64,000 nt of DNA from Leucoraja erinacea (GCF_028641065.1 NC_073387.1:12524001-12588000); one strand, 5' to 3'. Positions 11,301 through 64,000 are shown, numbered from the stretch's first letter. The notes: generated by a model from the sequence alone, not told the origin. Translations and numbers: made by a program.

Positions 11301-11480
11301 ATTTACACCGAAGATAAACACGAAATGCTGGAGTAACTCAGCGGGTCTGGCAGCACCTCTGGAGAAAGGGAATATGTGATGTCAAGACCCTTCTTTCTTC
11401 AGACTGAGAGTAAGTCTGAAGAAAGGTCTCAACCCAAAACATCATGTATTCCTGTTCTCCAGAGATGCTGCCTGACCGAC
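11300..11480. repeat. Penelope-derived repeat pair in inverted orientation with decayed hammerhead motif
   Basis: Reverse copy ..acccttctttcttcagact followed by forward agtctgaagaaaggtctcaacccaaaacatc..tctccagagatgctgcctgacc. Confidence 0.7.
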
Positions 11481-11971
11481 AAATCCAGATGCCATCTTCT
11501 CATACCTTTCATTTGCAGGAAATTCCACTAATAGTCATGTCAATGAAAGGGGAAGTCAAAGGGATACCAATATCTTGTTGTGCTGCAACCTAAAAAAAGA
11601 CTGGCTTTCAGGAAAAGTAACAAAAAATTAGAACCAAATGTAGACTTCTACTGAGAATAGCTCCCACCCCCATCTATACCTATCCTGAAACAATTTGAGC
11701 ATTGCAATGTAATCAATTCCTGCCAAACAGAAGCACATTAAATAGTAAACTCCAAAATGTGACACCATTTGATTTGACAAATTGTTTAGACCCACCCACC
11801 ACACCAAACCTACATAGGAACCTCAATGACATGATTAATGAGATCAAAGGTGGAATCTCCACTGTCCGTAAAGGTTTCCAAACGCCAGGCTAGCTAGATA
11901 GGCAATACAAGTCACACAAAAGAAAAAGGTATAAATATTAAGAGAGATATCCTACAATAGATATTGTATGT

Positions 11972-12270
11972 GGCGGCACAGTAGCACAGCGGTAGAGTTT
12001 CTGCCAGAGACCAGGGATCGATCCTGACCACAGGTGCTTGTCTGTATGGAGTTTGTACCTTCTCCCTGTGACCTGCGTGGGTTTTCTCCGGGATCTCCAG
12101 TTTCCTCCCACACTACAAAGACGTACAGGTTTGTAGGTTAATTGGCTTGGTATAAATGTAAATTGTCCCTAGTGTGTGTAGGATGGTATAAGTGTGCGGG
12201 GATCGCTGGTCGGCGCTGACCCAGTGGGAGAAGGACCTGTTTCGTCGCAGTATCTCTTAACTAAAAAAAA
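11972..12270 (+). mobile_element. HE1-type SINE
   Basis: tRNA head, core, tail as in other copies. Confidence 0.8.
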
Positions 12271-12689
12271 CTAAATTAAGATATATAGCAGAATGAAGCA
12301 ATATTCAACTTCATGTCAGGATTCAGAGCCCAGAAGTGAAAGTAATTTATACAAATATAATATTAAACAGCACGAAGTACATCATTTACATTTCTGAAAA
12401 CGTCACTGAAAAGAGGAGAGGCAGGGTGGGGTTAACAGGGAGGACAGGCAGGAGGTCGGGCCTACATGGGTTGCAAAGCCAGGGAGGTGGAAGGGCAAGC
12501 GAATGAAGGGAATGAAGTCTGGGGAACCAAATTGAAGGGCCAGTAGGGACATTGTAGAGGAGGAACAACCAGGGATGAAGCAAACAGAGGGGGGTGACAG
12601 AGGACAAGGTAGAGGGGAGGAATGGGCAAGGGACCAGGAGAGCAGAAAAGGCAGTGATGGTGGGACCACAGCAGAGGAGAAGGGGACAA

Positions 12690-13705
12690 TGTACTTCTAG
12701 TTATTGATTATATCTCTGCCTTGAACACCATTTCGCTAATCAAATTAATCTCCACACTTCAGGATTTACGATACAGCATCCAACTCTGCATTGGATCCTT
12801 GACTTCCTGACCCATTGACCTTAATCAGTGAGGACAGGTGACAATACATGCTCCAAGATGATTCTCAACACCAGCAGTATGACTCCTTGTATGCTCAGGA
12901 CTGTATGGAAAATCCTGATCCTACTCCATTTACAAATTTGCAGATGGCACCACCCAAGGTGAGCAGGATATCAAACAATGATGAGATGGCGTACAGGAAG
13001 AAGGTAAAGAGTTTGGCAACATGGTGTCAAGGCAACAACCTCTCACTTAACGTCAGCAAGACAAAGGAGCTGGTCATCGACTTCACAAAATGGGGTGGTG
13101 TCAGCATCAATAGTGCTGAAGTGGAGATAAGTCGAGTTTCAAGTTCCGGAGAATAAATATAACCAAGCATTCTATCAGAATACATCACAACTTGGTTTGG
13201 CAACTGCTCTGCCCAACACCGCAAACAATTGCAGTCGTGAACATAGCTGAGTCCATCACACAAACCAATTTCCCTCCCCACCCCATTGACTTAATCTATA
13301 CTTCACTGCCTTGGGAAAGCAGCCAACAAAATCAAGGGTCATTTGCAACTCGGGTTTCATTCCCCCTTCTCTCCTTTCCTGTTATGCAAAATAAAACTGG
13401 AAAACACGTACCAAAGGGTTTGAGAACAGCTTGTTCCCTGTTATCAAAATATTGAACAGGCCTTATGAGACAAGGGTATAATCCTGTGCTTCCAACCTAC
13501 CTCAATACAGCCCTTGCACTTTTTTTTTCAACTGCACTTTCTCAGTACCTGCAATACTGATGCTGTAATGTATTCTACATTCTGGTGTTTTTCTCTTTAC
13601 ATTTTCTGTTGTACTTGTGTGGGCCTTAATGGTATAATTCGACTTGACTGGATAGCATGCAAACAAAGTTTTTCCACTGTATCACATGTGACTATGATAA
13701 ATTAA
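12690..13705 (+). mobile_element. Decayed Rex1/Babar-clade LINE fragment
   Basis: ISNNDEMAYRKKVKSLATWCQGNNLSLNVSKTKELVIDF (ORF 12848..13156); Rex-type 3' end. Confidence 0.75.
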
Positions 13706-13899
13706 TGGACCCTCCGGCAACATGGACACTGTAGGTTTAGTAGATATGTAGAGGAAGGAACTGCAGATGCTGGTTTAAACCAAAGATAGACACAAAAAGC
13801 TGGAGTAACTCAGCGGATCAGACATCCCTGGAGAAAAGGAATAGGTGATGTTTCGGGTCGAGACCCTTTTTCATGATAAATCATGACCAATACCAACAG

Positions 13900-14495
13900 A
13901 GAAGCAGAGAAAGAGGGAAAGGGCAAAAGGGCGAGGTCAGAGGTGGGGGACACACCCCAAGGGAGAAGGGGGACAACAACAGTAGGCTGGAAAGATCGGG
14001 GGGGGGGGGGAGGAACCAAGTGTCGATTGGGCACAAAGAGAGCGGGGGGGAGCTGGGGTTCAGCAGGGAGGGGAGAGAGGTGGTGGGGGGGGGGGGGGGA
14101 AGGAGGGAGGAAGGTGGGGGGCAAGGGGGAGGGAGGAACCAAGCGAGGATTGGGCACGGGGGGGGGGGGGGCAAGGGGGAGGCAGAGGGTTAAGGGGGAA
14201 GGGGGCAAGGGAGAGGGGGGCAAGGGCAAGGAGGGGGGACAAGAGGGGGGGGGGGGAGGGGAGGGGGCAAGGGGAGGGGGGGGAAAGGGGAAGGGGGGAA
14301 AAGGGGAGGGGGGGGGGGCAAGGGGCAAGGGGGGGGGGGGCAAGGATTTGGGGGTGAGGGGAGGGGGGCAAGGGGAGGGGGGCAAGGGGGAGTGGGGAAA
14401 GGGGGAAGGGGGAGGGGGGGCAAGGGGGAGGGGGGCAAGGGGCAAGGGGAGGGGGCAAGGGGGAGGGATGAAGGGTGCAGCATGCAGGGCGGGGT
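13900..14495 (+). repeat. G/purine-rich low-complexity tract (GGGGCAAGGGG-like units)
   Basis: Almost only G and A on the + strand; repeated ggggcaagggg. Confidence 0.9.
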
Positions 14496-14591
14496 AAACA
14501 GGGAGGATGGCAACAACTGATACTATGGAAAAGTGAGTAGGAGTGAGACTTTGAGGGAGATCGTTTACGAATGATTGAAAGCGACATCTTG

Positions 14592-14607: not shown

Positions 14608-14994
14608 TTTTGACGGGGAGAATTGGCAGAGGCCTGCTGCATCTTTATGTATGCGTGTAAATTAAAGGAACATCTTTACTCCCCCCTCCTTTGCAATTCT
14701 GTGGCAAAATCCATTCCTTCATCTGTGCTTGCAGCACAAATTACAGACCGACAGCGGGCAATTTCAGGCCGGAGCAGAGTGGAGATGAAGAAGTGAGTGT
14801 ATCCTCCTACCCACACCATCCCCTCCCCAACACCACCCTGGGCTGCAGGTGGTAGGGGTAGCTGGCGGGGTCATCGGTCAGTGCGGATGATCAATGGGCC
14901 GGACAGCACGGCATTAGGGGACAAGGGGGATATAGTTGGCAACAAGTGGTCTCTGGCCACCCGCTCACCTCTGCTACTGCAACGGGCCTGGGGA

Positions 14995-15680: not shown

Positions 15681-15681
<1 letters not shown>

Positions 15682-16035: not shown

Positions 16036-16065
16036 ATGACTAAGCTGAGAAGCGGATGCACCCAC

Positions 16066-19149: not shown

Positions 19150-19420
19150 TCTTCAGTCTTAAAAAGGGTCCCAACCCAATCACCCATCTAATCTGAAGAA
19201 GGGTCTCCCTCCGAAACATCACCTATTCCTTCTCTCCACAGATGCTGCCTCACCCACTAAGTTTCTCCAGCATTTTTGTCTACCTTCGATTTTCCCAGCA
19301 TCTGCAGTTCATTCTTAAACCTATCTAATCCATGTTCTCCAGGGATGCGGCCTAATCAGCTGAATTACTGCAGCACTTTGTGTCTTTTTTTTTGTAAACC
19401 AGCTTCTATAGTTCCTCGTT
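19150..19420 (+). repeat. Tandem Penelope-derived pseudo-LTR repeats with hammerhead-like cores
   Basis: ctgaagaagggtctccctccgaaacatcacc..tctccacagatgctgcc; several partial units. Confidence 0.7.
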
Positions 19421-19668: not shown

Positions 19669-19808
19669 AAGGCGAGTCTTCTGAAGAAGGGTCTCGACCC
19701 AAAACGTCACTCATTCCTTCTCTCCAGAGACGTCACCTGGCCGGCTGTGTTATTCCAGCTTTGAGTCTATCTTGGGTTTAAACCAGCACCTGCAATTCCT
19801 TCTTACAT
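19669..19808 (+). mobile_element. Short Penelope-derived insertion with hammerhead-like motif, inside a Rex1 3' end
   Basis: CTGAAGAAGGGTCTCGACCCAAAACGTC; flanked by tatacactgtaatg (19655-19668) / tatacaccgtaatg (19809-19822). Confidence 0.75.
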
Positions 19809-22340: not shown

Positions 22341-24587
22341 TGCTATGCAATTAGCTTCTCTGCTTTTCCTGCTGAATTGGCTTGGTGCTTGTATTTGGGA
22401 CCGGGATTATGGATATGGGTTGTGAGGGTGAACATTACAACCCCAAGAACAATTAGAACACTATAAGCAATGGTAAATGCAACACAAGCGTAATGTTAAA
22501 GCAGGTGCATAAATGGCATTCCCCTTCTCTGAAGCAACATTAAATTACTGGTGAAAAAAGTTTGATTCACAGACGTTTCACAACTTAAAATGAATTGTAG
22601 GATCCTTCTGCCTCTGTCTCCATATTACTTTTGGATTTTTTCAACCATCTGCAAGCTCACTTGCACACCTGGTATTCCCCCAGTGAGGAGTAGTTTCTTG
22701 AAACTGTGAACCAGCCTTTAGAGACAGACTCCAACTCAGGACCCATATACTGGTAACACCAGACAAAGTGTTGGATAGCTAAGGAACTGCAGATGCTGCG
22801 ATCTTGAGGGAAATGCTGGAGGAACTCAGCAGGTCAGGCAGCATCCGTGGAGGGAATGGACAAGTGACATTTTGGGTTGGGACCCTTCTTTTGACTGATT
22901 GTAATAATGGAATGGATCACAAGTGTTAATTGTCCATTATTCAATGGCTGAGGCACCAGCAAGAATAAAATCTCAGATAACTGGCTTCACCATCTTATGC
23001 CGAGTTTCCGGAATAAAATATGGGAAAGAAAGAAATGAAGAGGGGTCTCCTGAAAGAATCGACAGCAAATGCAACCAATGGATTGAAGTGAAAGATAAAA
23101 ATGTCCATACAATTTTAAAACCAAGGCTTAAAAAGGATGAGATGTTGTTTGAAGAAATGCACTGGCCATAAAACAAACTTCTTGCTCATTTAGTGATAAA
23201 AGGGCTCAATTATGTGCTGGTTTACCAAATTAGATTATCCTTGGCTGACTGGCTAATCCTCCACTACATGAAGTGCCTTGCTCCTGACAGTATACTGGTT
23301 GGCATTGTTTTACAACATCTCCCCCTCATTCCTCCGACTCCACCACATAAATATCCAAACTCCATATCTTCATTCATTTCATGTCCAACACATTAGAATC
23401 AGACAATGCAGAAACAAGTCCTCTCAGCTCGCCTCTTCCACGGCAACTGTGATGCCCATCTACACGGCTACCATTTGCCCGAAGTAGGTCCATATCTCTA
23501 TGCCTTTCATATCTACGTACCTGTCCAAATGTCTTTTAAAAGTTGTATTCTCTTTTTTTACTTTTAATACATCTTCTGTTCTCTTTTTCTCTGGCTTGCT
23601 TCTTAACTCTTTTTCAAGTTTTTAGTTTCTAAACGTCTCTCTTGATCACTCTTTCACGCACTTACTATCCTATCCAACTCTTTACCTTTCTTCTTTTTAA
23701 AGTTTAAAATACGAAGTGGTACAGGAAATGTATTCTGTTATTTTTGGCTTATATCACTGTAATGTACACTACTTCTAATAAATTAAATTTTTTTAAAAAA
23801 AAAAGTTGCAATCAAATCTGGACTCAAACTCAGTCTCATTCTCCACATCTGGTCAGGCAGCATGTCTTATTCACCCAGCAGCTCACATTGACCTATTACA
23901 CTCCCAGTTAAATTCTCATATGTACAGATCTTTCTCTGGTCTTGCTACCTTCAATCTCCACCCTGTTCCAGCTTTCTAATTATTCTCCCTTGCTCTTATT
24001 ACAGCATCCAGTGCAACCAAGTTTCCTTCACTGATTTAACTACCTCAATCGCCTCTGCCCATGGTTTGTTCTTTCACAGTGAAAGGAACTGCACAATAAA
24101 AAAAGTCTGCTTTCGAAGCAGTTTATGAAATATATCCAAATCGGGATGGAGATGGAGTTATTCAATATTTTCCTCCCCTTCCAAGATGCCAAGGCAAGTG
24201 CAATGCCCCAAATGGGCTTTTATGGGGCGAAAGTAAAATCCAAATCAATAGTTAATGGGATTTTGACTTCATATAAACACACCATAGAACATGTTTATTT
24301 TCAATTGCCTTCTGCATGCAAAAGGAAACCTAAATTGAAAGTTGGTGCTACTTTAGGCACAATGTATCTATAAATGTCAAACAAAGATAAATGCAAATGG
24401 GTTGCTAAAATGTGGTAGTGGCTTTCAAGTTTTGACAGGAAGGCTTGCCAAAAGAAGTTTATATCAACTGTGTTGTTTCAAAGGGGAAGTATTCCAAATA
24501 TTTTGCAGATGGGGCAAAAAAAAAAAAAAAAAAAAAAAAAAAGCAGTAACATAGCAGCTGCTGTCTATGGCGAGACCAGGCACCCAA

Positions 24588-26130: not shown

Positions 26131-28684
26131 TTAAAAACACTGACTTTTTGCTAAAAGCCACTGTACAAATACCAGAAGTTGATAGAATGAAGCAGAGGTA
26201 CCTGTTGGATGCATCCTGCAGAATACTTTTGACAGCTTGGGCCAAGTGTACCTTGGTTTATCAACATGTGTAAAAGGTCAACCACAGCAGAGAGATGCAC
26301 CAATATTTATAAAAATCAGGCTTTATTTGACAAGTCATGTAGGGATAGTTCAGTTTACTCTGCAATGTGTGCTACACTTATTATTGGCTCACTGTACAAG
26401 AATCACCAAGCACTTGTGAATGATAAGTATTCTATTTCCCCATCATATTTTACCAGGGAGTGTAAAATTTAAACAATAAATGGCAATTTGTAAAATTAAT
26501 GAAAGTGCAACTACATAACGAGGGAAAAAAATGATTATTGAACTCGTGTCTCATTGTCATTAAAATCAAACATGTCATGATAACTAGGTTTATTTTATAG
26601 TCTTACAATTGAATACCTACCAATACATGGTTGTCCAGGCTGAGCAGGTGAATGCATCCCATGGTGTTTTGTGGTGGATGGGTTCCAGGTTTTAATAGAT
26701 GCTTCTACAATGGCAGTAAATCCAAGATAAAGTGTCAGGAAAATTCCCAATTAGCCTTAAATACAAACCCAAATTGATTGGAAAGGAATGAGTTTGTAAC
26801 AAAATGTAAATAGTGAAAAATCATCCATTCTCCTTTCCATTTTTAGAAAAGTGCAGAAATCAATAACATTGATTGTGCTGGTGCCCCCCCAAGTAATCAC
26901 AAACATTTATCATTACAAGTTATGCCAAATAACAAGACTCTGGAATGAAGAGTTACTTTAATGTATAGTTCAAATCAGAAGGCAATGAGTCATTTCCTTC
27001 AGTGTAGAGGGATGAAGTTGTGCAAGATGAAAGTTAAATATAACAAATGCGTGCATTTACAGGAAAGGTTCTCTGCAGGAAGCTTAAGTCCATGCTTACA
27101 TTATAGAATTACTTGTGAGATTGATCAAGGCATTAATTAACACTAATAAAAACAGTAACACAACAAACTCAACTGGATACAGAGCTGCTCACCCCAGTGC
27201 AGTTTCATGTTAAAGTCAGCATTTACAAATCTGCCTGTGCTTTGGTGTTATCCATAACTGCTTCCAGAAACACCATTAATCTAATTGCAGGAACACCATG
27301 AGCAATACGTTTAGGCACTTGCTCCACTTTCAGAAATGCAAGTTAGCTTGGGCAATTTCCCTTGGCACACTAACACAGTTTCACATTATATTCAACACTA
27401 CAACCACGTTCAGGATCTGACACCTCATGAACGGTGAAACAATCCAGTCTCCTCTGCGTACATTATGAATCAGTCCCTGCATTTGAAAATGCAATCATTA
27501 ACATGGTGGGAACTCTAATCCACCGTGACAGAAAATGCTGAATTTATCCTCCAAGGCCATTCACTTACCCAGGAAACCTTCAAATGGGAGAAAAATATAT
27601 ACCCTGTTTACATGCAATTCTGATTGAAGTCCTTATCTATTAAAGGTAGGAAATAAGCTAGCAAGTCAATAACCTAATAATTGACATATTTACTTAATAA
27701 TTGACCAGTCTGAAGAAGGGTCTCAATCTAAAACGTGACCTATTCCTTTTCTCCAGAGATGCTGTCTGACCTGGAGTTACTCCAGCTTTGTGTCTATCTT
27801 TGGTTTAAACCAGCATCTGCCGTTCCTTCCTATACATCTCTAATAAATCCATCGAGTCCTTGTTGCCAGAGGGTCAATTAATTGGTAATTGCCATCTGCC
27901 CTTTGATTTTCCCTCCCAAATTAATGACATTGAACGTTTAACTAACAATTGTGGCCATTGCACATGCTGGACAGGTTTGCAAATCCTCCTAATCCGTTTC
28001 CTATTCCTTAATGGGTTGTGCTGTATCTCTATTGACCAGAAGTCCTGAACAATTGAAGGTTGTAGGAATAAGAATGGATTTGGAATGCACTTAAAGAGAA
28101 AAGTTAACGCTAGGGTGGAAACTGGGAGAATCAAAGTGGCGAGTTAGTTTCCGGGCTTCATCATCAAGCAGTTGATAGATTTAAGGTATAATGGAAATCC
28201 AGAGATAGTCAGGATAATGGGATACAGCTGGTGTTTTAACAGTTGACAGGTTCTATTTGGGTCCAGGCTCAATGAATGAATATATGATGAATATAGCCTC
28301 TGATAATCCAGGTGAATCTACAGTAGGAGTCAAATCCAGGGTCTTCTCATTGGAGCCAGTGGCACGAATGCATTTACAATTTAAAAAACATAGCAGAGAT
28401 CATTACTCGAGAGCTGATGCAAAGTTTCTTCTGCCTTATCGCTATAACCTTCAAATACAATTTTAACAAAGAATTGTTTTATGTTAACCAGACCTTCAAG
28501 AAAAGGGTGTGGAGCTCAGAAATCAGGTCCTAATCCACAAGTACTGTTGACTCATGTGCTGAAATACTGAACCTGGAGAAAGGCTTGTTTGTTCCTGATA
28601 ATCAAAACTGACGATGCTGGAAATCTAAAATAAAATGTTGTCAATATGCAGGTCAGGCCACATCTGTAGGATAAGTAACATAAT

Positions 28685-42445: not shown

Positions 42446-43249
42446 CTGAAAATGAATTGTGGCAGAGAGCTTAATCTACTTGATTAATTACAGGAACAAA
42501 CAAAAAGCAAGCAATAAATTAAATTACAAGCTTCAGTCATAAACAATGTGCTGAAAACACTCAGCAGTGCTGGATGCATCTGTGGGAAGAAACAGTTGAT
42601 GTTTCAGTTCCAAGATCCTTCAGAACTGGGAAAGAGAAACAGGTCAGTTTTCAGTATCAGAAAGTTGGAGGGATGCATAAAGAACAAAAAATCCCTGATA
42701 AGGTAAGACTAAATGAGCTAACGTGGTAATTAGAAAACCAACCTCCTGAATTGGCTGCATCTCCAGCCAACCTGTTACAGAACAGTTATAGTGAAGGCAT
42801 CTATCCAGTGTGATGTCAATTTCAAGAAGCCACATAAACCAATCTGAAGAAAGGTCCCAACCCAAAATGTCACCTATCCACTTTACTTTACTACACAAGT
42901 TACTTTAAAAAAAACAAAAACAATCCCTAGTACTACTAGTTAGACAGCTTGGGCAATATTTTCAGATCAGCTAAGTGAAAACGTTGACAGACATCAACTT
43001 CACTCAATAATCTACTCATTGTTGCAAGAGTTTGTTTTGTGAGGGCACTGCTTGAAACATTAGTCTAAGCATGGGCCAAATTCTAGAAGAGAAAGACATT
43101 TGACAGCAAGCCATCATGGGGGTCTAATATTGGAATTATAGCCCCACAGATAGTTGTAATACAAGGTTAACCATTCCACTCCCCACCTACACTGCACTAA
43201 TGCCTCAGGTCAATATTTGAGATTTTTTTAATTGGCTTCAGTGATCTTC

Positions 43250-47002: not shown

Positions 47003-47413
47003 CTAATGAACAACATTTACAGGTTATATCCGAGGGGACAACAGCAAATTCTACCTTAAATAACTTATCAACATTCATAATGAAGCATTTTGGGGAAAAG
47101 TTTCAGATTCTAATTTTCTTTTCGAGTAAAGTTTTCCCAATATGTAGGGCTTGATACCCAGGTGTAATGAAAATGAAGTACCTTTCCGATATTATATACA
47201 GTGAATAGAACAAGTTCTGAATTACTCCAAGCTGCTGGAATTACAGTATCTATGCAGCCGCAATTTCTACCCCCACCCAAATTATCTTTTGCAAGTAGAT
47301 TAGGATACATTTAGCCTTTTAAAAACAAACAGCAAACAAGCTCAAAAAGAAGGTACACAAAAATGCTGGAGAAACTCAGCGGGTGCAGCAGCATCTATGG
47401 AGCGAAGGAAATA

Positions 47414-47447
47414 GGTAACGTTTCGGGCCGAAACCCTTCTTCAGACT
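47414..47447 (-). ncRNA. Minimal type I hammerhead ribozyme motif in a Penelope-derived repeat (best-preserved copy seen)
   Basis: Minus strand: AGT-CTGAAGA-A-GGGTT-TC-GGCCC-GAAAC-GTT-ACC; catalytic core and stem II intact, very short stems I and III. Confidence 0.6.
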
Positions 47448-47683
47448 CCGAGTAACTCCGAGTTACAAGCACGATGATAAATGTGATATTAAGCTCAAAA
47501 ATAAATCCTTTTCATGGAATACACCAGACGAGACGGAATTCCTCATCAACACTCAGGATATCCAAAGTTACCATACATTTGATTTGCCTTCACCTTACTT
47601 TGGATGCAAACAGAACCCTGTTGTAAAACAAGTAATATGTTGAGCTACACCATCACTGTCCAAAAAAAAAAATCTTCCCCTTT

Positions 47684-48160: not shown

Positions 48161-49078
48161 AAAACAGTCTGAATCTTAACTTTTCAGTTTATAATTATTT
48201 TATCAGTCTTAACTAGTCATTACATCCATTGACCATATCATATTTGGATGAAGGAGGAAATACACTAAATCTATTGCCTGTAGGAGCGCCAGTCAAATAA
48301 TAGCCAAGATGACAACAGTCATTCTCCAAATAGACTGTCCACCATCAATGGGGTGCACTAACCAAAATGACCAGTGTTTACAAAACCAGTAAGATAGACA
48401 CAAAATGCTGGAGTGACCCAGTGGGTCAGGCAGCACCTCTGGAGAAAAGGAAGAGGTGATATTTCAGGTCGAGACCTTTCTACAAACTGAGAGTCAAAGG
48501 AGAGGGAAACTAGAGGCATGAACAAGAACAAATCAGAACAGGCACAAATGGCCAAGGAGCCCACAATGGTCCTTTGTTGGCTGTGGAGGAGGAGATAAAA
48601 AAGATATTCGAACAGTGAAACTAGCAGGACAACTAGGGTGGGGGAAGGGACAGTCTCTTAAGAGACTGGACATACTGCAGTTGTAAAAAAAAAACAAAAA
48701 CTGGGGAAATGAAAGACATTAGTCCTTTACAAAATATAGAATTTTGGTCTGAAGAAGGGGGCCCCGACCCAAAACATAACCTGTCCATCCCCTTAATGGA
48801 TGCTACCACGACCCAGCATGTTCCTCCAATACTTTGTGTTTTGCCTAGAATTCTACTTGTCTGCTGGCTTATGTCACTGCTGAGCTCCGAGTTGCAAGCA
48901 CAATGATTAATATGATGTTAAACACAGGTGAAATAAAGAGTTCATCGTGAATATCTGGTTAGTTTTCAAACAAAAAAACATCCATGGATTTTTCTGGTAT
49001 ATTCAGAATTAGTTACATACTGATAATGCAAAAGCACACTGAAACATTCCTGATTAATACAATACATCATTTTAATAC

Positions 49079-50129: not shown

Positions 50130-51379
50130 CTTGAACAGAAATAAGAAAAGTTTCTTTAGATACCCCATAACCCCTGCAGATAAATCTCATAAATAATGCA
50201 TTATCAAGCGAGCCACTTTCAATGCCAGCAATCCCAATCTAAAAAAAAGTTAAATCTTGTTCATTATTTTTTATCCTGGTCTACCTTTGTCCCCAATCTT
50301 AAATACAAACTTAACAAGTTATTTTAAAAAGGCTTATCATTTAATGTTAAGTTAATTAAAAACAAAACAAAAAATAGATAACTAGCTGCTAAGTTCAAAG
50401 TCACTACAACCTCTCAGCATGAGGATCATGAGCAAAAAGGCTGGACTGCATTATAATGATTATTACTCCCTCCCTCTATCTTCTTCACCATTATTATTAA
50501 GTGAGAGCTGCAGCCTTTAAATACCATACCATCATCAAGGGGTGGGCTTTGACTCACAATTCAACCTATTGTGCTGCTTCACAATAAATGACAAGGGTCA
50601 AGAGTTTTAATTTCTTTCATGAAATTTGTCATAAAGACCTGAAGAGATATTAAAATGTATATATTGCACACTAAAATCATATCTCTTCAATGGCTGATCT
50701 TTAAAAGTGAATTTATAAAATGCACAATGTTAAGATTCAATTGTATCTCGTTAGATGTTTAACCCTTCCCTGGCACACACACACAAAATTCGGATGCTCT
50801 GCTCACATTTTAAAATTTTAACTTTGATTTGCAAACTGATTTTTTAATTTGTCTTACAGTGTTTAAAGAAAGTTAGTGAACTTTGAATGTAAAATGTTCT
50901 ATTAGAATGCGGGTTCTATCTGAGCTAGATTAGTGCATGCTGGGATATCCAAAGTCCACAATCTTAACTTTCGAAGTGCATCCTAACTGAGAGAATTAGA
51001 GTGAGTTAATTAATATACTTCTTTCCTACAAGAAGTACTGTGTTGAAAGAACAATGGCATTTATAGATGATATATTTAGTGGGATCTTGTGACTCGCAAC
51101 ACAAAGCCTCTAGAATTACCTAAAATACATCTTCTCCTTTTAAGATGTCTTTAAAATCCACCTCCTTATTTCCTTCTTTGATTTGTATCTGATTTTTTAA
51201 TCAGATTTTGCCCTTATGAAACCTCTTATGTTTTACTATGCTTGTAGTGCCATGTAATAATACAACTTATCATTTGCATTGTGGCATGTTACGGACTTGG
51301 ATCTTTTCAGAGGTTTTTTTTTCCCAAGACACTGTAGTTAAAAGTGGATTACAGGAAACTAATTGACACTAAGGTATAT

Positions 51380-52155
51380 AAACAAACAGGTGCTGGTTTA
51401 CAAAAAAAACACAAAATGCTGGAGTAACTCATCAGGTCAGGCAGCATTCCTGGAGAACATGGATAGATGACATTCCAGGTCAGGGCCCTTTTTCCGACTC
51501 CTTCAGTCTGAAGAAGGGTGCCGACCCAAAACGTCACCTATCCATGATCTCCTCCAACCTCATCTACTGTATCCGGTGTTCTCGGCATGGACTCCACTCC
51601 ATCGGCGAGACCATGAGCTGACTGGACAACCATTTTGCTGAACATCTATGCTCAGTTCGCCTTGAGCTATGTGATCTCCTGGTTGCCAAACCTTTTAATT
51701 CCCCTTCCCATTCCCATTCTGGTCTTTTTGCCCTGGGCCTCCTCGACTGTGAGAGTGAAGACAAATGCAATTGGATGAACAGCACCTCATATTTCACTGT
51801 GGTGTGTATTTTGATTTCTCTAATTTCAAATAACCCCTGCAATCCCCCTCTCCGTTCCTCCTTAGTCGTCTTGCAAATTTCACTGTTCTTATCCCTTCAT
51901 TTTCACCTCCTCCTCAGGTGGTTCATTGTGGGCTCTTTGGCCATTTGAGCCTTCTCTGCTTTGTTTTGTACCTTTTCACATCTCTAGTTTCCCTCTCCCC
52001 TGACTCTCAGTCTGAAGAAGGGTCTCGACCTGAAAAGTCACCTTTTCCTGTTCTCCAGGGAAGCTGCCTGACCCGTTGAGTTACGCTAGCTTTTTATGGC
52101 TTTCTTCAGGGATGCTGCCTGACCTAATGTATTACTCCAGCTTTTTGTGGCTTTT
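51380..52155 (+). mobile_element. Penelope-like element 3' part: decayed GIY-YIG endonuclease with flanking pseudo-LTRs
   Basis: From ~51566 YCIRCSRHGLHSIGETMS*LDNHFAEHLCSV..VAKPFNSPSHS (GIY-YIG); hammerhead-like pLTRs at ~51505 and ~52009; inverted pLTR at ~51380-51495. Confidence 0.8.
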
Positions 52156-54329
52156 TTAATACTAAGGTATAACAGGTTAATTACTATATTGTATACCTTT
52201 TCAGCAGACTAGTCTTTCTGTATGTTGTGTGTAAGGCTGCATATTTGTATCAAATTAGGAATAGCATTATGTTGCTATTCATGACCACTGAAAAAATGGA
52301 CTAATCACATCCATTTCAAGAGGGACCTTTCCTGGCAGCAAACAAGACCTGGGTGAAGTTGCTTTGAATTCATTGATATCACACAATGAAGTGTAAATGT
52401 TGGCTACAACTAAATTTCACTTCATCTGGCCCAATATGCTCCCAAGTTTGGATTAGTTGTTGCCAAGGTTAGGACCTTGAAGTGGAAATTCCAGCCAGGT
52501 AATTCAAGCTTCCATGGAGTTGTGTAATTGTTCTGCTCTGCATAATCACGGATACCCTTTGTAATTTATTTTGAAGTTATTATAAATTACCGTGTAATGA
52601 TCTGGAGCATATTTAAATAATATGAATTATTCAAATTGAGGAAAAAATGAAAACTTTCAGATGATAATTATACCCTGAATCAATTGTCTAACTATTCCGA
52701 GTTCATCTCCTTTCCCTCATTCAAACCTTCGCTTCTCTCTGCAAGACTCTGACTGTCAATATGGATAGTTCATTGGTCATGATTAGCTCCCCTTCACTTG
52801 AGCCAACCATAAAAAAATCTTGGTCAACCTTTTCTCCACTGTCTCTAAAACTTTCTTGGCTCTCTAATGTGTGGTGCCTAGAGTAGAATGCACAATTTGA
52901 ACCGGGGCAAAACCTTGGGACTATATTTATGAAGGCCAGAAATCCACATGCTTGATTAACTGCTTTGTTGAATGTTCTTGGATATTCAAAACTCAGGTCC
53001 CTTCCATCGTCACCTTTTTAAAATTATAACACTTGGCCTGATTTTGTTTAACTCCCATTTTTTTCAACCAACTGACACCAGCCTCAAATATTTTGGCTGC
53101 CAGGAATGATGCATTAAAGATAATGCTCAATGGCTCAATAGTTCAAAGGTACTTTATTGTTATTCCCTTATCATACACTGTAAATTGCTCGATTGTAATA
53201 ATGTATTCTCTTTCTGCTGACTGGATAACACGCAACAAAAGCTTTTCACTGTACCTCGGTACAAGTGACAATAAACTAAACTGAAGTAAAAGCTCACAAT
53301 CATGAATAAGTCTAAAAGTGCAATGATTGTAGTGTAAAATTAGTAGATTTGACCGAGGCAGTGTACAAAGAGTCGCCATCTTGTGCCCTTCGTGTTTCAA
53401 GTTCTTAAAAGTAGAATCTAATCTTGACCTTAAAGGCCCATTGAGCTGCACTGAGTCGTTGTTGCAGGGGTCGGTCTTGCCTGGCGATGCTGTTGAAGTC
53501 CTCCACTGCGGCTCCACCACCCTGTGCTGTTGCAGCTGCCTCCTGCCTCCTGCCTCTGCACGCTCGGCCTCTGCGGTTCTCAATCCACATGATCCCCAAA
53601 CTCCTGCAGGGCCTCCAGCTGCCCACTCCATGGACACATTAACCCGCAAACTCATCATCCCCTCGCCTCCCGCAGTGAAAGCCTTTAGCTGCAGGATTCT
53701 ATTATACATAAAGTCCAAGACATTGTAAGCAATAAAAATGCCTTGCATATCTAATGCATTCCAAGGCCCTCCATCTGCATGCTTTGTCATTGTGGAGAAA
53801 ACAAGTCCTAGTCATGAGAGTAGGGTATGGGAAGAGAGTCCCTAAAATTGGACATGTCACATTGGGGTCAAAACTCAAGAGTTGTATGGGAACATTGGGC
53901 GACCATTGGTCATTATTTGCTGTTGGGAGGTGGTGGAGAGTGGTGAGATTGGGAGTTGCCATCAGGTGGGAAAGCAGTTGCGGATCTGACGGAGAACCAA
54001 AATGAGATGTACATTTTTAGCATTGGGGAGATTACTTAGACCCTGTGTCCATGTTGATATGTGCTATTTGGCCCAGCCCTGCAATACTAGCCTGAACATG
54101 TCAATGAAATTCATAAACATGGTACCCAAATGTGATTGCCATTGTGCAGATCTGGTTGATAGTGTGTCATATATAAGAAATAACTTAAAGCAAAATCACA
54201 TACAGGGATCAATGCACTAAATTCCAGATTATGTTTAGCAATGCGGCAATAGTAATGAAAACTCCCCACCTTCTACAGGTGCACGGTAGGGAGTATTTTG
54301 CTTTGTTCCATTGTGACCTGGTTCGGGAA

Positions 54330-55470: not shown

Positions 55471-55604
55471 NNNNNNNNNNNNNNNNNNNNNNNNNNNNNN
55501 NNNNNNNNNNNNNNNNNNNNNNNNNNNNNNNNNNNNNNNNNNNNNNNNNNNNNNNNNNNNNNNNNNNNNNNNNNNNNNNNNNNNNNNNNNNNNNNNNNNN
55601 NNNN
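55471..55604. other. Assembly gap (134 N)
   Basis: Run of n characters. Confidence 1.
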
Positions 55605-58574
55605 AGAAGAATCAGAGGAAATATTATCAAAACACACAAAGTTCTGAAGCAGTTTGATACACTGTATATGGGAAGGATGCTTCCCCTGACTAGGGGGGTT
55701 TAGAATGAGGGGAAATTATACTGGAACCTGGAGTAAAGAACAAAGTCACCCTGTCACCCAGCATCTAATGAGTTAAAGAAATGGATCATAAAGAAGGATC
55801 AACAATTTAAGTCGAGATCTTACATTCTTATACAAGACCTTTATGTCTGAGATGAAGAGAAATGTCTTCAGTCAGAACATGGAATCCCCATGGAATTTCT
55901 CCACAACAGTGGGTTGTGGGGGCTAAGCCACTAAATGTGTTTGAGAAAGGAATAAAGTGAACAGCCACAAATATATCAAATCGTGCCAGTGCAGAGTAGG
56001 GACATGGCATTGAGGTATAGGATCAGCTACGATTATATTGAATGATGGAACAGGCCAAGTTCTTACTCCAATTTTCTTAAAGCAAAATTCAGAACATTTT
56101 GGGGAAGGTAATAAAAATATCTTGAACAGATCCTTTTCATTTTATCAGGCTGCGTTGGATTTGAGCGTACAGTATATTCTAGAGTTGAACGGCTGATGGA
56201 AAAACTCCTTTCCCTGAATATTGCTCTTTAGCTGAAATCGGGACTTTGCAGCTCAATTTTTGTAAATCATGACAAACTAAGGAAAGATACCAAGGATTTG
56301 AACAGAATACGATTGAAATTGAAAAACGAGAATTAAAAATAGTAAATAGTAAATACTATTTATAAATAATAAAAAAAGTAAATAGAGTAAATCGGGGGAT
56401 GGCTGGCTACAAATGCTTAGAGATTAAAGAAAGCAATTGAGGCAAGTACAGGCTTTAACCATTCTGAACTGCTCTAAAATTAGGATTAGCATGGAAGATG
56501 TTGCCACAGCCACACTCAGCAGGTCAGACATCATTTCTGGAAAAATAAATTGTGTTAACATTTCAGGTCATTGAGTCATGGAGTCATCGTGCAGACAGCA
56601 CAGGAACAGGCCCTTTGGCCCAACTCATCATTGCCGACCAAGATGCCCCGTTAAACTCGTCCCATTTTCCCGTATTTGGCCCATATCTCTCTAAACCTTT
56701 CTTATCCATGTTTTTGTCCAAGACCATTCTTAAGAATTTCACCGTCTGCAACTTAAAAAATGCTTGTTTTGTTTTTAACTCGTGGCAGTTTCAATGGAGC
56801 ATCTTCATCCTGAAACATTAACTCCGATTCTCTTCCCACAGATGTTACCTGATCTGAGCGTTTCCAGTATTTTACATTCACACATCTGATCTCGAGCACT
56901 TGCAGCTTGTTGATTTTCAAAGCAATTAGGAAGTTACACAAGCCAAACGTTATGCAAAATGGAGAAGAAAGAATGTAAAATATTTTGAGGAGGAATATTT
57001 TGATAAATTTGAGGCATTAAGGAACTGGGAGCCAAGACACATGAGGAAGTTCAAAGATCATAATGGGTGTGCCATAGGTTATTGAAATTTGGATCAATCT
57101 TTCTGTTAATGCAAGGATGACTGAGAATAATAGAATATGTAGTCTAATAATTGATAGTTTACAATTAAAAACACAGGATTAGGTGCTACACCAATTATTT
57201 TTCAGCACCCTTGGTTCCAGAGCCTTGCCGTAATTTGTGTTTTGCTGGACAAACAACGGTCACAGGCTTTGGGGCCGAGATACTGGCCCACAAAGCCAGC
57301 CGTGGAAGTCGGCTATGGGAATGGATTTGCCGGGTCTGGCTGGGCCAGAGTTCCAGGGCCCTGGCCACAAGGGGCAAATTCAACCTGCCAATTGCCATGG
57401 AAGTCCCGATGATGTTGAGATCGGTTTCCTCAGCCGGCCTGGGCACCACATTTTCGGGGGAGCTCCAGGGGGATTACAAGTGCGCTGTTATAATTTTGTC
57501 TGGATTAAAGGAGTGCCCGGACCATCTGTTGCTGGAAAATCGGTGGTGGTTCTGTATTGGGATCTCGAAGAATATCTTCAAATAACATTGGCGAAAATTG
57601 GTGGCTGACACTAAATGTGATTAATGTGATTAATGTTATGATTAACAATAGTTTCAGTACTTTTCTCCTTCATCGTGATAAAGACAATGATTTGTACCAG
57701 TTTCACAGACACATATCTTGCCCATCTACCTATCTCGAACACTGAGGAACAATTTGACATGTGAAGATTCAATTACTGCTGGACACATGTTGATGTAATT
57801 ATTGCAAGTTTAGTAAATGACAACTGTTTATTAGCTCTGAATTTAGACGATTTAATTGTTTGACCATATCACAATGTTAATGAACTTTGGTCAAACCTAT
57901 CTTATTCCAAACAAAGTATCCTCAGTGCCAAACTAACTATTTTATTTTTCTTCCTCAAAGATCACTGATACTCCCGTGATCACTCCTGTGACTTTCAGTC
58001 TGAAGAAGGGTCTTGACCCAAAACATCGGCCATTCCTTCTCTCCAGAGATGCTGAGTTACTCCAGCATTTTGTGTCTATCTTCGGTTTAAACCAGCTTCT
58101 GGAGTTCCTTCCTACACATCACTGAATCTTTTTTTGGATAGACATGGTAGCCCCATTGTTTCTTCATTCAATTAGTTTATTCTTCTTTGATAAACAGTCT
58201 GATGTTGTATATCACAGTAGATAAGCTTAACCAAATTAGGACAACCTGTTCTGATCAAATTTGCAGAAAACCCTGGTGAATGATGTAACACAAGGGACTG
58301 CGGCTGCTGGGTAATAAAATGCTGTATTAACTCATCGGGTAAGGCAGTATTTCTGGAGGACATGCATAGGTAACGCTTTGGGTCAATACCCATCAGTTTA
58401 ATTGTAGGGGAGATGACTGGAAAGGAGGTGGGGGCAGTTGCTGGTTTAAACCGAAGGTAGACACAAAATGGTGGAATAACTCGGCGGGACAGGCAGCATT
58501 TTTGGCTAGAAGGAATGGGTGACTTTTCTGGTCAAGAACCTTCTTCAGACTTCTTCAGATCTTCTTCAAGACTG

Positions 58575-58920: not shown

Positions 58921-59919
58921 GATAAGTGGATACAAGTGAAGGGTTTTAATTGGCAGATGGGGAGACAAAGGGCAGGGATGGAGTGAAGACAAAAGATAAA
59001 GATAAGGAAAGATAAGGAAAGAAGAGGAGTGAAAATATGATGCCAGAGGAAGGCACTTATTGAATATTGTGCCAGTTATAACAACTAGCAACATTTTCAC
59101 CGGCATAGAGTCATACTCTTACTTCATGCACCTGTGCAGAAACTTGAGTTACTATAATAATTGAAACACATGGAATTGCAGATGCTGGAATCTTAGGCAA
59201 AACCGAAAGTGCTGGAGTGACTCAGCATTCCTTCTCTCGAGAAATGCTGCTTGTCCTGCTGAGTTACTCTTTTGTCGCTAACTTTGGTGTAAACCAGCAT
59301 CCACAGTTCCTTCCCACACATTATTTCAGCTAAAGTTGTTCAAAATTCTCCCATAAGAAATCTTTCCCTTTAAATTTCATATTGACTATCAACTTTGATG
59401 ACAGTCCCTAGTATTCTGATGGTGATCAAATATCCCATCATTGTGGTTCCCCCTTGATTGCTGATGCTCATCTCACCTACACCCCTGCTTCCTCTGCCTC
59501 AATGTTCATGACAGCATTTAACTAAATCTCGCGACTTAAAACTGTGCTCATGAAATGTATCAATTTCCAGTTACCCCGTTGTAATTTCCTCAGCCCTGAT
59601 TTAACATCTTTTTCCACAAATGTATATGAGGACCAATTTATGATAATAATTTTTCAAGCCAAGATACCGTTTGAAAGTGTTGGTAGACACAAATTGCTGG
59701 AGTAACTCAACGGGACAGACGGCATCTCTGGAGAGAAGGAATGGGTGACATTTCGGGTCAAGACCCTTCTTCGGACTGATTTTTAGAAAGTAGTTTACTT
59801 TTCAAAAGGAGTATAATGATGCCCTGTGGTGAACCTGCATGAGAGGTGTGTGCATAAGCTGCTCTCTAAATATTCTACTTTGGGACTCCACCATTCCAGA
59901 AGCCAAGGTAAGTTTTAAT

Positions 59920-61990: not shown

Positions 61991-62399
61991 TTTCAGCAGG
62001 CCATGATGTTTGTGAGATTGTAAGACAGCAGAAAGTCACCAAACTCCAATGATCAAGAGTCAATAGTGTTTTATTGCCATATGTCCCAGATAGAACCATG
62101 AAATTCTTACTTGCAGCAGCACAACAGAATATGTCTAGTCAAGTTTTATTCATCACTTCCACACAAAGTGCAGTGAAATGAATTGCAAAGATTTGTCACT
62201 TGCACATAAAGTGCAGTGAAATGAACTGTAAAGATAGTACTCTGTGAACAATATAATAAACAAGATAATATTTAAATATACTGTTTAAGGGAAGGAGCTG
62301 CAGGAGCAGCATATGCTGCTTTAGCTATAAGATCTTTGCTTTAGACTGAAGACATATTTTGTATCTACCCTTTGTCGAAGGGGAACTGAGACCTGATTG

Positions 62400-62580
62400 A
62401 CACTCATCCTGTCCAATCATGTGGGCGACTGAGCCGCAGCCAATCGGCGCCGCCGCTGGGGAGGCAGGTCCCGCCCCCGTGACGCATAGGAGGAATCGGG
62501 CCGCGATTGGCCGCCTCGGATAGCAGGGCTGGCATTGGCTGCTGGGGGTTCGGCGTCACCGCGGGAGATTTAAAATCCAC
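62400..62580 (+). promoter_or_regulatory. CpG-island cell-cycle-type promoter (4 CCAAT boxes, GC box, CRE-like sites, CDE-CHR)
   Basis: CCAAT 62413 and 62440, ATTGG 62506 and 62534, CCCGCCCC ~62470, TGACGCA ~62480, CGCGG-gaga-TTTAAA 62560-62574. Confidence 0.75.
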
Positions 62581-62774
62581 CAGAAGCCGGAAGTGAGCGG
62601 TGGCGGCGGCGACAGCGGGGGCTGCAGCGGGTCCTTGTGTGCTCGTTCACTCGCAGCAAGAGGGTGGCTCTGGGCCCGGTCGCAGCCGAGGAGTGTGTTT
62701 AGTCCAGCCCAGCGGCGTCCACAGTCGCAGCAGATTTGCCTCGTACAGAGGGGAAAGCCTCTGCCCTGCGGGAG
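62581..62774 (+). other. Probable non-coding first exon of a plus-strand gene (CDC25C by synteny inference)
   Basis: GC-rich, ETS motif CCGGAAGT, no ATG, donor GAG|gtgagg at 62774/62775. Confidence 0.55.
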
Positions 62775-62809
62775 GTGAGGCTAAGTCGGCATAACATGAA
62801 CTGGCAACT

Positions 62810-63150
62810 TAGAATAGCCTCGCTAAGATGCACAGGGTCTCTTGCCCCAGAGTTGGTGAATCGAGGATCAGAGGACGTAGGTTTAAGGTGAAGGGGAAAC
62901 GATTTATAGAAATCTGGGGCGTAACGTTTTCACACAAAGGATGATGAGTTTATGGAGCAAGCTGCCTGAGGGGGTAGGTGAGGCAGGGACTATACTAACG
63001 TTTAGGAAACAGTTAGATTGGTACATGGATGGGACAGGTTTGGAGGAATATGGACCAAACGCAGGCAGGTGGGACTAGGGTAGCTGGGACATGTTGATTA
63101 CTGTGTGCAAGTTGGGTCAATGCGCCTGTTTCCACATTATCACTATGACT
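62810..63150 (+). mobile_element. Decayed CR1 LINE 3' fragment
   Basis: ..cagaggacgtaggtttaaggtgaagggg..tttcacacaaagg..; CR1 3' UTR. Confidence 0.75.
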
Positions 63151-64000
63151 ATTAAGACATGAAAGATAGGCACAAAATGCTGGAGTAACTCAGTGGGACA
63201 GGCAGCATCTCTAGAGAAGGAATGGTGATGTTTTGGGTCAAGACCATGTGAGGGAGATCATGTCAAGTAGGAGTCGGAGGGAGCGAGATCATTTGGAGAG
63301 AAAAATTAATCTTCCTTCTCTGAGACGAAGGATCTAGTTAGAATGAGATCCTATTTGCTGGGAATTTGGGAAGGAAACCTAATGTCTTTCCTTTTCAAAC
63401 AATGTAACTCTCGGCAAAAGGATCTAGAGTGAGATTGTGTGTCATGTTCTCCTGAGATGCTGACTGATATGCTGAGTTACTCCAGCACCCTGGGTTGTCT
63501 CTGGTTAGCGTGGGATCCTGTTTACTGGAATTTTGGGAAGAAAAGGATAAATGAAAGCTTTTTGTTTGTTGTGAGTTAGCATGAGAGTGAGAAAGGGAGA
63601 CTTAATCCTGTTTACTAAAAGGCAGACTGAGTGAAGAACTCAATCCTCATTACTGGAAGTAAGGCTGAGAGGAACATCCGCTTTATGTGACATTAGACAG
63701 CTTGAGCTGGAGTGAGGCTAGATCTGTTCTTGTTGGGAATTATAGTGTGAGAATGAAGCAGCCTAGATCTTTTTTTGCTGGGAGTTATGGTGTTGGCGAG
63801 GGGAAGAGAGTAGTTGCTTATTTTTCTAGGGAGAATGGATCAATGTCCACTAGGAAATGGGGCTCAATTTGCTTTCTCTCAGGGCTTGAGTTGAGACGTA
63901 TCAGCAACAGCAACATCTTAATGGGAGGTTGGGTTGAGAAAGAAAGTGAAAAATATTGGATGCTGCCAGCTGCATTGATCAGTATATGCAGTGAACTTTC

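What the first reader, a model, noticed from the sequence alone, without database searches (positions are those of the whole stretch)
11380..63245. Window-wide family of minimal hammerhead-ribozyme motifs in Penelope-derived repeats
Seen: more than a dozen copies on both strands of CTGAAGA-A-GGGTC-TC-GACCC-GAAAC-GTC-ACC (e.g. ~11414, 13845, 19192, 19681, 22864, 27709, 42843, 47414, 48746, 51505, 52009, 57997, 58518, 59744). This is the CUGANGA/GAAA/NUH core with a stem II hairpin, a vestigial palindromic stem III (ACGT) and an extra A after the CUGANGA box. Stem II varies but keeps pairing (GGGTT/GGCCC, GGGT/ACCC). Established: Penelope-like elements carry minimal type I hammerheads in their pseudo-LTRs that cleave as dimers. 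Inference: this genome holds a very large retrozyme-like hammerhead family, with most copies inactivated by CpG decay (CGAAA to CAAAA).
Basis: partly seen in the sequence, partly recalled or inferred. Interest (0 to 1): 0.7.

Follow-up and report, generated by a model that had tools for sequence, protein, structure and literature searches.

The report
Penelope end stubs with minimal hammerheads
These repeats are the end pieces of a known kind of jumping gene (a Penelope-like retrotransposon) that carry a known miniature self-cutting-RNA motif; the genome holds about 60,000 intact and an estimated half-million mostly decayed copies, which are likely dead by-products copied from uncut RNA rather than a family of self-spreading ribozyme circles.

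Summary
Observation confirmed: all 14 listed sites hold the motif (14 at ≤8 mismatches, 0 in 50 shuffles); only one (47414-47444, minus strand) is intact. The motif is the minimal type I hammerhead in the pseudo-LTR of a Neptune-type Penelope-like element: one insertion in the window (51379-52160, 11-bp target duplication) joins it to a GIY-YIG remnant, and near-full RT+GIY-YIG copies lie elsewhere. Genome-wide there are 60,218 intact cores and an estimated 575,000 core-spanning copies. Corrections: helix II is 4 bp plus a tetraloop; helix I is only 2 bp; copies show no covariation; an off-hairpin is predicted 5-8 kcal/mol more stable; G12A hits 26% of copies and CpG decay alone explains 20 of 179 broken ones; tandem (retrozyme) layout is rare. 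Copies start in a cluster just before the core, not at the cut site, so they were likely copied from uncut RNA beginning there. RNA reads show no cut ends. The kind is published (Cervera 2014), and this scan noted this family before on other DNA (119 notes in this genome). Side find: 44-nt hammerhead arrays confined to one 4-Mb region.

The parts
51379..52160 (+). One complete 5'-truncated Penelope-like insertion: inverted pLTR piece, endonuclease end, 3' UTR, hammerhead, tail; flanked by an 11-bp direct repeat (51368-51378 / 52161-52171)
51403..51500 (-). Inverted pLTR arm with broken hammerhead (head-to-head with 51503)
51503..51552 (+). Short pLTR piece, hammerhead with G12A, joined to the endonuclease remnant
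51549..51830 (+). GIY-YIG endonuclease C-terminal remnant (stops and a frameshift)
   Evidence: tblastn E 3e-18 to a genomic GIY-YIG frame; 71% DNA identity to near-full element L133; 15 of 21 residues to P0001
52007..52154 (+). 3' pLTR with hammerhead (core intact, helix III palindrome broken) and a duplicated 51-nt tail piece
47347..47448 (-). Only intact copy in the window (youngest subfamily; motif 47414-47444); short type
11299..11478 (.). Head-to-head pair (11299-11407 -, 11411-11478 +), both hammerheads broken
13770..13874 (-). Short copy, core front changed
19190..19292 (+). Short copy, core intact, helix II/III broken; a second tail piece follows at 19328-19389
19680..19786 (+). Short copy, G12A
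22811..22898 (-). Short copy, old subfamily, core broken
27705..27813 (+). Short copy, G12A and C17G
36825..36999 (.).
40873..40957 (-).
41161..41258 (+).
42840..42880 (+). Hammerhead-only remnant, G12A
48390..48641 (-).
48745..48851 (+). Short old copy, G12A, 2-nt insertion in helix II
57995..58095 (+). Short copy with long tail, G12A
58441..58552 (-). Copy with reiterated 10-nt front piece (58540-58573), core intact, helices broken
59673..59779 (-). Short copy, U4C
63159..63245 (-). Copy truncated inside the core (starts at helix II)
3373..3442 (+).

Best explanation
The repeats are the pseudo-LTR ends of a Neptune-type Penelope-like retrotransposon, each carrying that element's minimal type I hammerhead motif, and they are likely dead-on-arrival reverse transcripts of uncut element RNA rather than an independently spreading ribozyme family. 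Shown: the motif sits about 95-130 nt behind the stop of an RT + GIY-YIG frame and, in tandem copies, about 130 nt ahead of the next frame's start; insertions have target duplications, two 3' end points about 35 nt apart, and frequent head-to-head arms; most copies are decayed. Inferred: the element's enzyme nicks DNA, starts copying at the two 'tail' sites behind the hammerhead (as measured for the anole element) and runs 5'-ward; two thirds of the copies that reach the front of the core stop or turn there, likely because the template RNA begins there (an initiator-like TCAGTC lies at that spot). Inferred: the motif is kept by selection only in the few master elements, where it would cut tandem transcripts weakly, as a dimer and with the element's protein as chaperone; the dispersed copies drift neutrally and would rarely cut host RNA.
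For: Link to the element: 18 of 20 fetched GIY-YIG regions show a same-strand motif 95-140 nt behind the frame's stop or are read as such from sequence (17 by the pattern, L053 by eye; L055, L057 and L071 lacked a match at that place), one insertion in the window itself, tandem junction motif-tail-ORF start in L105, L109, L112, L121-123, L125, near-full copy L133 with a 16-bp direct repeat at both ends (read from sequence). Protein: DKG, YIDD, CX4CxxC linker, GIY-YIG with two cysteines; nearest Atlas clusters carry RVT_1 + HTH_animal + GIY-YIG at score 0.97. Motif fits the published consensus. Neutral decay: no excess pairing or double changes at any of 10 pairs in 210 random copies. Master-level constraint: the five changes that define subfamilies inside the motif are all structure-compatible (two loop changes, two U-A to U-G, C17 to U) and none hits the catalytic core (chance about 0.02 by a hand estimate). 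5' ends: of 225 random copies reaching the core front, 99 begin there, 52 turn into an inverted arm, 74 go on; 17 of 83 short copies show a direct repeat >=8 nt against 4 in a control. No pile-up at the cut site: 2, 0, 3, 1 of 386 hits at the four positions around it; no read begin/end pile-up in two lays. Papers: protein-assisted cleavage, uncut RNA as main substrate and internal start at the tail for the anole element (PMC11167929); low dimer activity (PMC4209133).
Against: No cleavage, start-site or protein-binding experiment exists for this family; the mechanism is borrowed from a Poseidon-clade element. Helix I is 2 bp (third pair in 19 of 210 copies) and the active fold is 4.6-8.3 kcal/mol above an off-hairpin in 68 intact copies, so the motif may not cut at all. 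Pfam hits for RT (E 1.4e-4) and GIY-YIG (E 0.013) are below the curated cut-offs. No intact full-length ORF was found among the regions fetched. The start-site reading lacks a cap-G signature (G before AGT in 6 of 16 non-C cases), the 5' ends are spread over about -13..+2 rather than one base, and the RNA runs laid are of a coded organism not shown to be this species.
Confidence: 0.82

Rival explanations
1. The motif is mainly an internal RNA polymerase II core promoter (initiator plus downstream elements) and a landmark for the reverse transcriptase; in this lineage the hammerhead is vestigial and does not cut.
For: Counting the A of TCAGTC as +1, CGACC sits at +18..+22 (revised MTE 'CGANC') and CGTCA at +28..+32 (DPE 'RGWYV', 4 of 5) (chance of the MTE match about 0.006 at the exact register, post hoc). 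5' ends cluster there. Penelope of D. virilis has an internal Inr/DPE promoter (PMC2377424). Helix I is 2 bp and the off-fold dominates. The Inr consensus TCAKTY is recalled, not found by my text search.
Against: The youngest subfamily changes CGACC to CGGCC, which breaks the MTE match but keeps helix II; the DPE-like letters are forced by the hammerhead consensus itself; MTE +27..+29 matches 1 of 3; no cap-G excess; in D. virilis the promoter lies about 120 nt upstream of the hammerhead; 2-bp helix I also occurs in published PLE hammerheads (D. virilis, Culex, Oikopleura rows).
Confidence: 0.2
2. The copies are a non-autonomous retrozyme family: tandem transcripts self-cleave, circularise and are re-inserted by the Penelope enzyme.
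For: 44% of core-front copies (99 of 225) are short and protein-free with their own target duplications; rare 38-51-nt tandem arrays with up to 8 intact motifs exist; a 2026 preprint derives animal retrozymes from pLTRs (10.64898/2026.07.22.740005).
Against: No tandem array of the motif in the window; 8 of 223 neighbour pairs are same-strand and <250 nt apart; 237 tandem matches against 60,218 intact cores; copies do not begin at the cut site; short copies share the subfamilies and both tail ends of ORF-linked pLTRs; 5 of 22 arrays examined by pattern with 38-43-nt units have no intact motif; a 44-nt dimer folds 23 kcal/mol away from the active form.
Confidence: 0.07
3. The pile-up of 5' ends at the motif's front comes from the enzyme stalling or jumping at RNA structure (the off-hairpin or the TCAG/CTGA palindrome), not from an RNA end.
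For: 52 of 225 copies turn into an inverted arm at this palindrome-rich spot, and 5' ends are also raised inside the core (47 and 39 in the first two 9-nt bins); front pieces of 10-12 nt are reiterated in several copies.
Against: Ends fall off sharply upstream (44 ends over -13..-60, about 0.8 per nt, against 99 within about -13..+2), which a single stall would not require but an RNA end predicts; part of the in-core starts are local-alignment trimming.
Confidence: 0.25

Closest known systems
Minimal type I hammerheads in pLTRs of metazoan Penelope-like elements (Cervera and de la Pena 2014, PMC4209133; read: main text parts 1-2 of 4, supplement parts 1-2 of 3)
   Same: Core CUGANGAH...GAAA...NUH, extra nucleotide after A9, G10.1-C11.1 pair, palindromic C-G stub for helix III, location in the pLTR, mostly dispersed single truncated copies, opposite-strand pairs. 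The Acropora Neptune row (3-bp helix I, 4-bp helix II, tetraloop) is nearly the same layout.
   Different: Helix I is 2 bp (their consensus shows 3); 60,218 intact cores against about 4,000 (coelacanth) and 9,000 (Xenopus) reported there with another descriptor; no cartilaginous fish among the rows of their Fig. S3 or Table S1 that I read.
EN+ Penelope-like elements, Neptune clade (Craig et al. 2021, PMC8557442; passages only)
   Same: [quoted passage not shown]
   Different: Nematis shares the linker and was not excluded by a tree; no microsatellite target bias was tested.
Poseidon element of Anolis carolinensis, PAc (Frangieh et al. 2024, PMC11167929; parts 1-2 of 4)
   Same: Hammerhead at the pLTR-ORF junction, two 3' end points giving a tail, no RNA-seq reads ending at the cut site.
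   Different: Other clade; in PAc the ORF starts at helix II, here the likely start codon is about 160 nt behind C3; PAc activity was measured, this family's was not.
Animal non-LTR retrozymes (PMC7229834, passages; bioRxiv 10.64898/2026.07.22.740005, parts 1-3 of 5)
   Same: Type I hammerhead, pLTR-related, protein-free, co-occurs with Penelope-like elements.
   Different: Retrozymes are tandem repeats (150-450 bp in the 2020 paper; 51-972 bp in the preprint) with mostly canonical hammerheads and circular RNAs; here nearly all copies are single and minimal, and the rare arrays have 38-51-nt units.

Membership tests
EN+ Penelope-like element | One frame with RT followed by GIY-YIG endonuclease | tested here: met
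   601-residue stop-free frame P0001; Atlas neighbours with RVT_1/HTH_animal/GIY-YIG, 0.97; Pfam hits below cut-off; endonuclease remnant in the window
EN+ Penelope-like element | Pseudo-LTR from partial tandems, with the hammerhead inside | tested here: met
   3' UTR-motif-tail-ORF start junctions in 7 of 30 loci with upstream UTR, more with the motif alone; pLTR-ORF-pLTR copy L134
EN+ Penelope-like element | Inverted 5'-truncated arm, optional 30-40-nt tail, variable target duplication | tested here: met
   52 of 225 copies in inverted junctions; 3' ends cluster near +90-96 and +113-131, duplications 8-15 nt in 17 of 83; 11-bp duplication in the window
Neptune clade | DKG motif and CX2-5CxxC linker before the endonuclease | tested here: met
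   DKG in L063 and L133 (read from sequence; a stop replaces K in L053); CX4CxxC in P0001
Neptune clade | RT phylogeny grouping with Neptune rather than Nematis | not tested
   No named reference proteins were in hand
Minimal type I hammerhead of PLEs | Catalytic core, extra nucleotide 9.1, G10.1-C11.1, palindromic 15.2-16.2, NUH | tested here: met
   All subfamily majorities keep them; 60,218 exact descriptor matches, 0 for the reversed control
Minimal type I hammerhead of PLEs | Helix I of 3 or more base pairs (published consensus) | tested here: not met
   2 bp; third pair in 19 of 210 copies; published exceptions with 2 bp exist, so this lowers expected activity rather than excluding membership
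Minimal type I hammerhead of PLEs | Compensatory covariation in helices I and II | tested here: inconclusive
   None among 210 dispersed copies, as expected for neutral copies; five one-sided or loop changes between subfamilies, all compatible; no related species' masters were compared
Minimal type I hammerhead of PLEs | Site-specific self-cleavage as a dimer or with protein | not testable with these tools
   Folding predicts an off state; no cut ends in RNA reads, which these libraries may not keep
Non-LTR retrozyme | Tandem repeats with a hammerhead in each unit | tested here: not met
   None in the window; 8 of 223 neighbour pairs; 237 against 60,218 matches; met only by rare arrays elsewhere
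Non-LTR retrozyme | Abundant linear and circular monomer RNAs ending at the cut site | tested here: inconclusive
   No begin/end pile-up and no cut-site back-joint among the 15 best-supported joints shown per lay (233 and 314 not shown); poly(A) and single-cell libraries are poor for circles
Rfam hammerhead families | Match to a curated covariance model | tested here: not met
   0 of 10 matches at E<=10 are hammerhead families

The most novel reading that the evidence does not exclude
The element starts transcription on the hammerhead's own doorstep: a 40-nt stretch is at once initiator-type core promoter and ribozyme, the transcript folds into an off-hairpin so that it is copied uncut, and the enzyme's internal start at the tail turns every such transcript into a 100-135-nt 'start-to-tail' stub; these stubs, not retrozyme circles, make up about 4% of the genome and record the start site half a million times. 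Bare 44-nt hammerhead arrays then spread within one chromosome region by DNA-level copying into older stubs.
Probability: 0.3. Interest if true: 0.55.

Novelty: new member of a known kind. Interest (0 to 1): 0.3.

Why it matters
The kind is in print, so the finding is not surprising in itself. It matters as material for an open question, what the hammerhead does for Penelope-like elements: a young vertebrate Neptune family with tens of thousands of intact motifs, only 2 bp of helix I and a predicted off-fold offers a direct test of protein-assisted cleavage, and the pile-up of copy starts predicts where the element's RNA begins. It also warns that motif counts in such genomes count passengers, not working ribozymes.

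Tried and rejected
Rfam scan: no hammerhead family. PDB sequence search with P0001: 0 matches. Splicing at CAG|TCTGA (as for the D. virilis intron) or at the later pyrimidine tract: no GT..AG joint among the joints shown (15 of 248 and 15 of 329); branch-point-like words lie only 4-7 nt from the AG; not supported, not excluded. Cap-derived extra G at short-copy starts: not seen. Class of copies starting at the cut site: in a targeted search (2,001 matches) 15 of the first 100 listed break there by my eye count, as many as at two other of the ten positions, several explained by microhomology joints; no clear footprint. Strand bias in single-cell reads (about 6:1) looked like element transcription but poly(T) loose ends show oligo-dT priming on antisense read-through RNA. 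Run search: no RNA holder listed on record. Copies with a 4-bp (2,756) or 7-bp (56) helix I: by inspection of 12 and 10 loci they come from front-piece reiteration, fold-back joints or chance flanks, not from a separate active family. A note that both pLTRs of L134 share one deletion was wrong: the deletions differ. Lower divergence of core than tail sites (5.7% against 7.8%) was not taken as selection because detection and subfamily differences bias it. The dimer-cleavage paper by Lunse et al. is not held; I saw only its citation and a summary in a review (PMC6765202, passages and part 2 of section 11). Searches for a published description in cartilaginous fish listed none by title or abstract start; Repbase/Dfam and the preprint's supplementary tables (closed) could not be seen and may hold this family.


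Full report
1. Observation. The 31-nt motif is at all 14 listed places; 14 ungapped matches at <=8 mismatches against 0.00 per shuffle in 50 dinucleotide shuffles. It is the front of a 100-135-nt repeat; a profile built from 30 genomic copies finds 30 pieces in the window and 0 in reversed control DNA. Of 19 window copies spanning the motif, 5 keep the catalytic letters, 9 carry G12A and 1 (47414-47444, minus) keeps core, helix II and palindrome. Rfam gives no hammerhead hit.

2. What it is. Upstream of several exact genomic copies lies the end of a GIY-YIG frame. A search with that frame gave 103,275 candidates (150 scored). In 20 fetched regions a same-strand motif lies 95-140 nt behind the frame's stop in 17 by pattern or by eye (L053 by eye); L055, L057 and L071 lacked a match there. 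One region holds a 601-residue stop-free frame with YIDD, a CX4CxxC linker and GIY-YIG; Pfam hits are weak but the Atlas places it with RT/HTH_animal/GIY-YIG clusters at 0.97. DKG and the linker are the published marks of Neptune/Nematis (PMC8557442 passages). L133 is a near-full copy with a 16-bp direct repeat at both ends, and tandem junctions show 3' UTR, motif, tail and then the next frame's start. In the window, 51379-52160 is one insertion with an 11-bp target duplication that joins an inverted arm, an endonuclease remnant, the 3' UTR, the motif and the tail. The motif matches the published consensus for minimal PLE hammerheads, extra nucleotide and palindrome included (PMC4209133). That the genome is of a cartilaginous fish is my recall from the repeat, not a call.

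3. Scale and decay. The exact 32-mer occurs 9,287 times and an intact-core descriptor 60,218 times, control 0. In 80 evenly chosen 10-kb regions (800 kb) there are 373 pieces covering 4.1% of the DNA; 210 span the motif, giving about 575,000 genome-wide (bootstrap 480,000-680,000). Of the 210, 31 keep core, palindrome and helix II and 179 do not; G12A is in 55, a helix III CpG hit in 78; 103 broken copies have a CpG hit but only 20 are broken by CpG changes alone. CpG decay is the largest single cause, not the cause for most.

4. Is it a working ribozyme? Against: helix I is 2 bp (third pair in 19 of 210); no pair shows excess pairing or double changes against 1,000 shuffles; in 68 intact natural copies helix I has median probability 0.000, helix II 0.01, and the active fold lies 4.6-8.3 kcal/mol above a hairpin that pairs the core with the pyrimidine tract behind the cut site (no tertiary or Mg2+ terms). 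RNA reads cover the motif deeply (about 15,000-fold in 5% of a poly(A) run) but show no begin/end pile-up; the runs are of a coded organism not shown to be this species, and the single-cell strand bias is oligo-dT priming on antisense read-through. For: the catalytic letters are the majority in all subfamilies except G12 in the oldest (24 copies, CpG decay), and the five subfamily-defining changes within the motif are all structure-compatible. Published relatives cut weakly as dimers, only with protein, or in 1 of 9 dimers; 2-bp helix I occurs in published rows.

5. How the copies arose. Of 386 random hits, 225 reach the core front with enough flank to judge: 99 begin there, 52 turn into an inverted arm, 74 continue into the pLTR; 155 start inside the repeat and 6 were not judged. 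Ends upstream are about 0.8 per nt (44 over -13..-60) against at least 6 per nt at the front; diverged subfamilies without a partner would inflate the short class. The cut site is not a start point (2, 0, 3, 1 hits), and a targeted search gave no clear peak (15 of the first 100 of 2,001, eye count, equal to two other positions). 3' ends cluster at two places about 35 nt apart and 17 of 83 short copies have target duplications against 4 in a control. With the internal start measured for the anole element, the simplest reading is copying of uncut RNA from the tail to an RNA end just before the core. An initiator-like word lies there, with MTE- and DPE-like words at the expected spacing, but the youngest subfamily breaks the MTE match and no cap-G excess is seen. 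The start-site step is inferred.

6. Retrozyme reading. Retrozymes are tandem repeats with a hammerhead in each unit. The window has none; 8 of 223 neighbour pairs are same-strand and under 250 nt apart; two tandem patterns give 237 matches, many overlapping. Rare arrays of 38-51-nt units do exist; all 34 matches to one 44-nt array junction lie in C35:9.5-13.8 Mb. The 10 such loci fetched have 4-13 units, unrelated flanks, their own target duplications (read by eye in 6) and arms from different subfamily variants, which fits local DNA-level copying into older fold-back insertions better than spread through RNA circles; an earlier scan note on a 66-nt unit (e1-8848157) moved me to that reading.

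7. Verdict. Real, and a new member of a published kind. The scan has noted this family on other DNA many times (119 notes in this genome, 1,681 in at least 59 genomes); those notes are unchecked and not used as support; two of their claims from other genomes (cut-site footprints, cap-G) were not reproduced here. Papers seen: PMC4209133 main text parts 1-2 of 4 and supplement parts 1-2 of 3; PMC11167929 parts 1-2 of 4; bioRxiv 10.64898/2026.07.22.740005 parts 1-3 of 5 (supplements closed; its one cartilaginous fish may be relevant); PMC8557442, PMC7229834, PMC5580651 passages; PMC2377424 passages and section 15; PMC6765202 passages and part 2 of section 11; Lunse et al. not seen. Interest 0.3.

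Noticed in passing
G000:C35:9499404-13798100 (L246-L255): All 34 matches to one junction of a 44-nt hammerhead-only tandem array lie in 4.3 Mb of one contig, on both strands, inside fold-back pLTR insertions with separate target duplications; up to 8 intact motifs per array. The unit is shorter than the shortest retrozyme unit (51 bp) in the 2026 preprint.
   Followed up: partly
L256-L258, L261 (C38, C17, C30), L259, L260, L233, L235, L241: Other regional array variants with 38-51-nt units; the 38- and 40-nt ones on C17, C30 and C38 lack the start of the catalytic box, so array formation does not need an intact ribozyme.
   Followed up: partly
window 44630-44750 and about 45460-45615, minus strand: Two exons of a histone stem-loop-binding protein (SLBP-type) gene (Pfam SLBP_RNA_bind E 3.7e-9). 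The one intact hammerhead copy (47414-47444) is sense to it, 1.8 kb upstream of the first of these exons; gene limits not mapped.
   Followed up: partly
window 31641-34742 (-), with 1869-2911 / 34788-35827 as an 88% alike inverted pair of 1-kb repeats and 29436-29661 / 36001-36225 as a direct repeat: Decayed LTR-retrotransposon-type element: integrase, RT and RNase H domains in broken frames. Observed only.
   Followed up: no
window 61102-61992 (-), 7565-8332 (-), 1524-1958 (-): LINE-type RT fragment, Tc1-like transposase fragments, and an endonuclease/exonuclease/phosphatase-like fragment.
   Followed up: no
L074, L078, L081, L094, L097, L101 (about 1030-1500 orientation): A repeated element with a shared sharp left end that has captured an internal piece of the Penelope ORF; the end looks like a DNA-transposon terminal repeat (recalled).
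   Followed up: no
L112, L125, L076 junctions: In one subfamily the hammerhead and tail read without a stop, in frame, for about 55 codons into the likely start codon, and an out-of-frame ATG behind the cut site opens a short frame overlapping it; other subfamilies break the read-through.
   Followed up: no
window 58540-58573; L032, L067, L267, L272: The first 10-12 nt of the motif are often reiterated in front of a copy, as if the enzyme re-aligned at the template end.
   Followed up: partly
L274, L279, L281: Fold-back joints at the GT/AC microhomology that create a hammerhead with a long perfect helix I (3 of 10 loci viewed among 56 pattern matches); candidates for the most active natural copies.
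   Followed up: partly
window 14093-14479 and 14990-15179: G-rich degenerate tandem arrays (periods 7-57); 55471-55604 is a run of 134 N.
   Followed up: no
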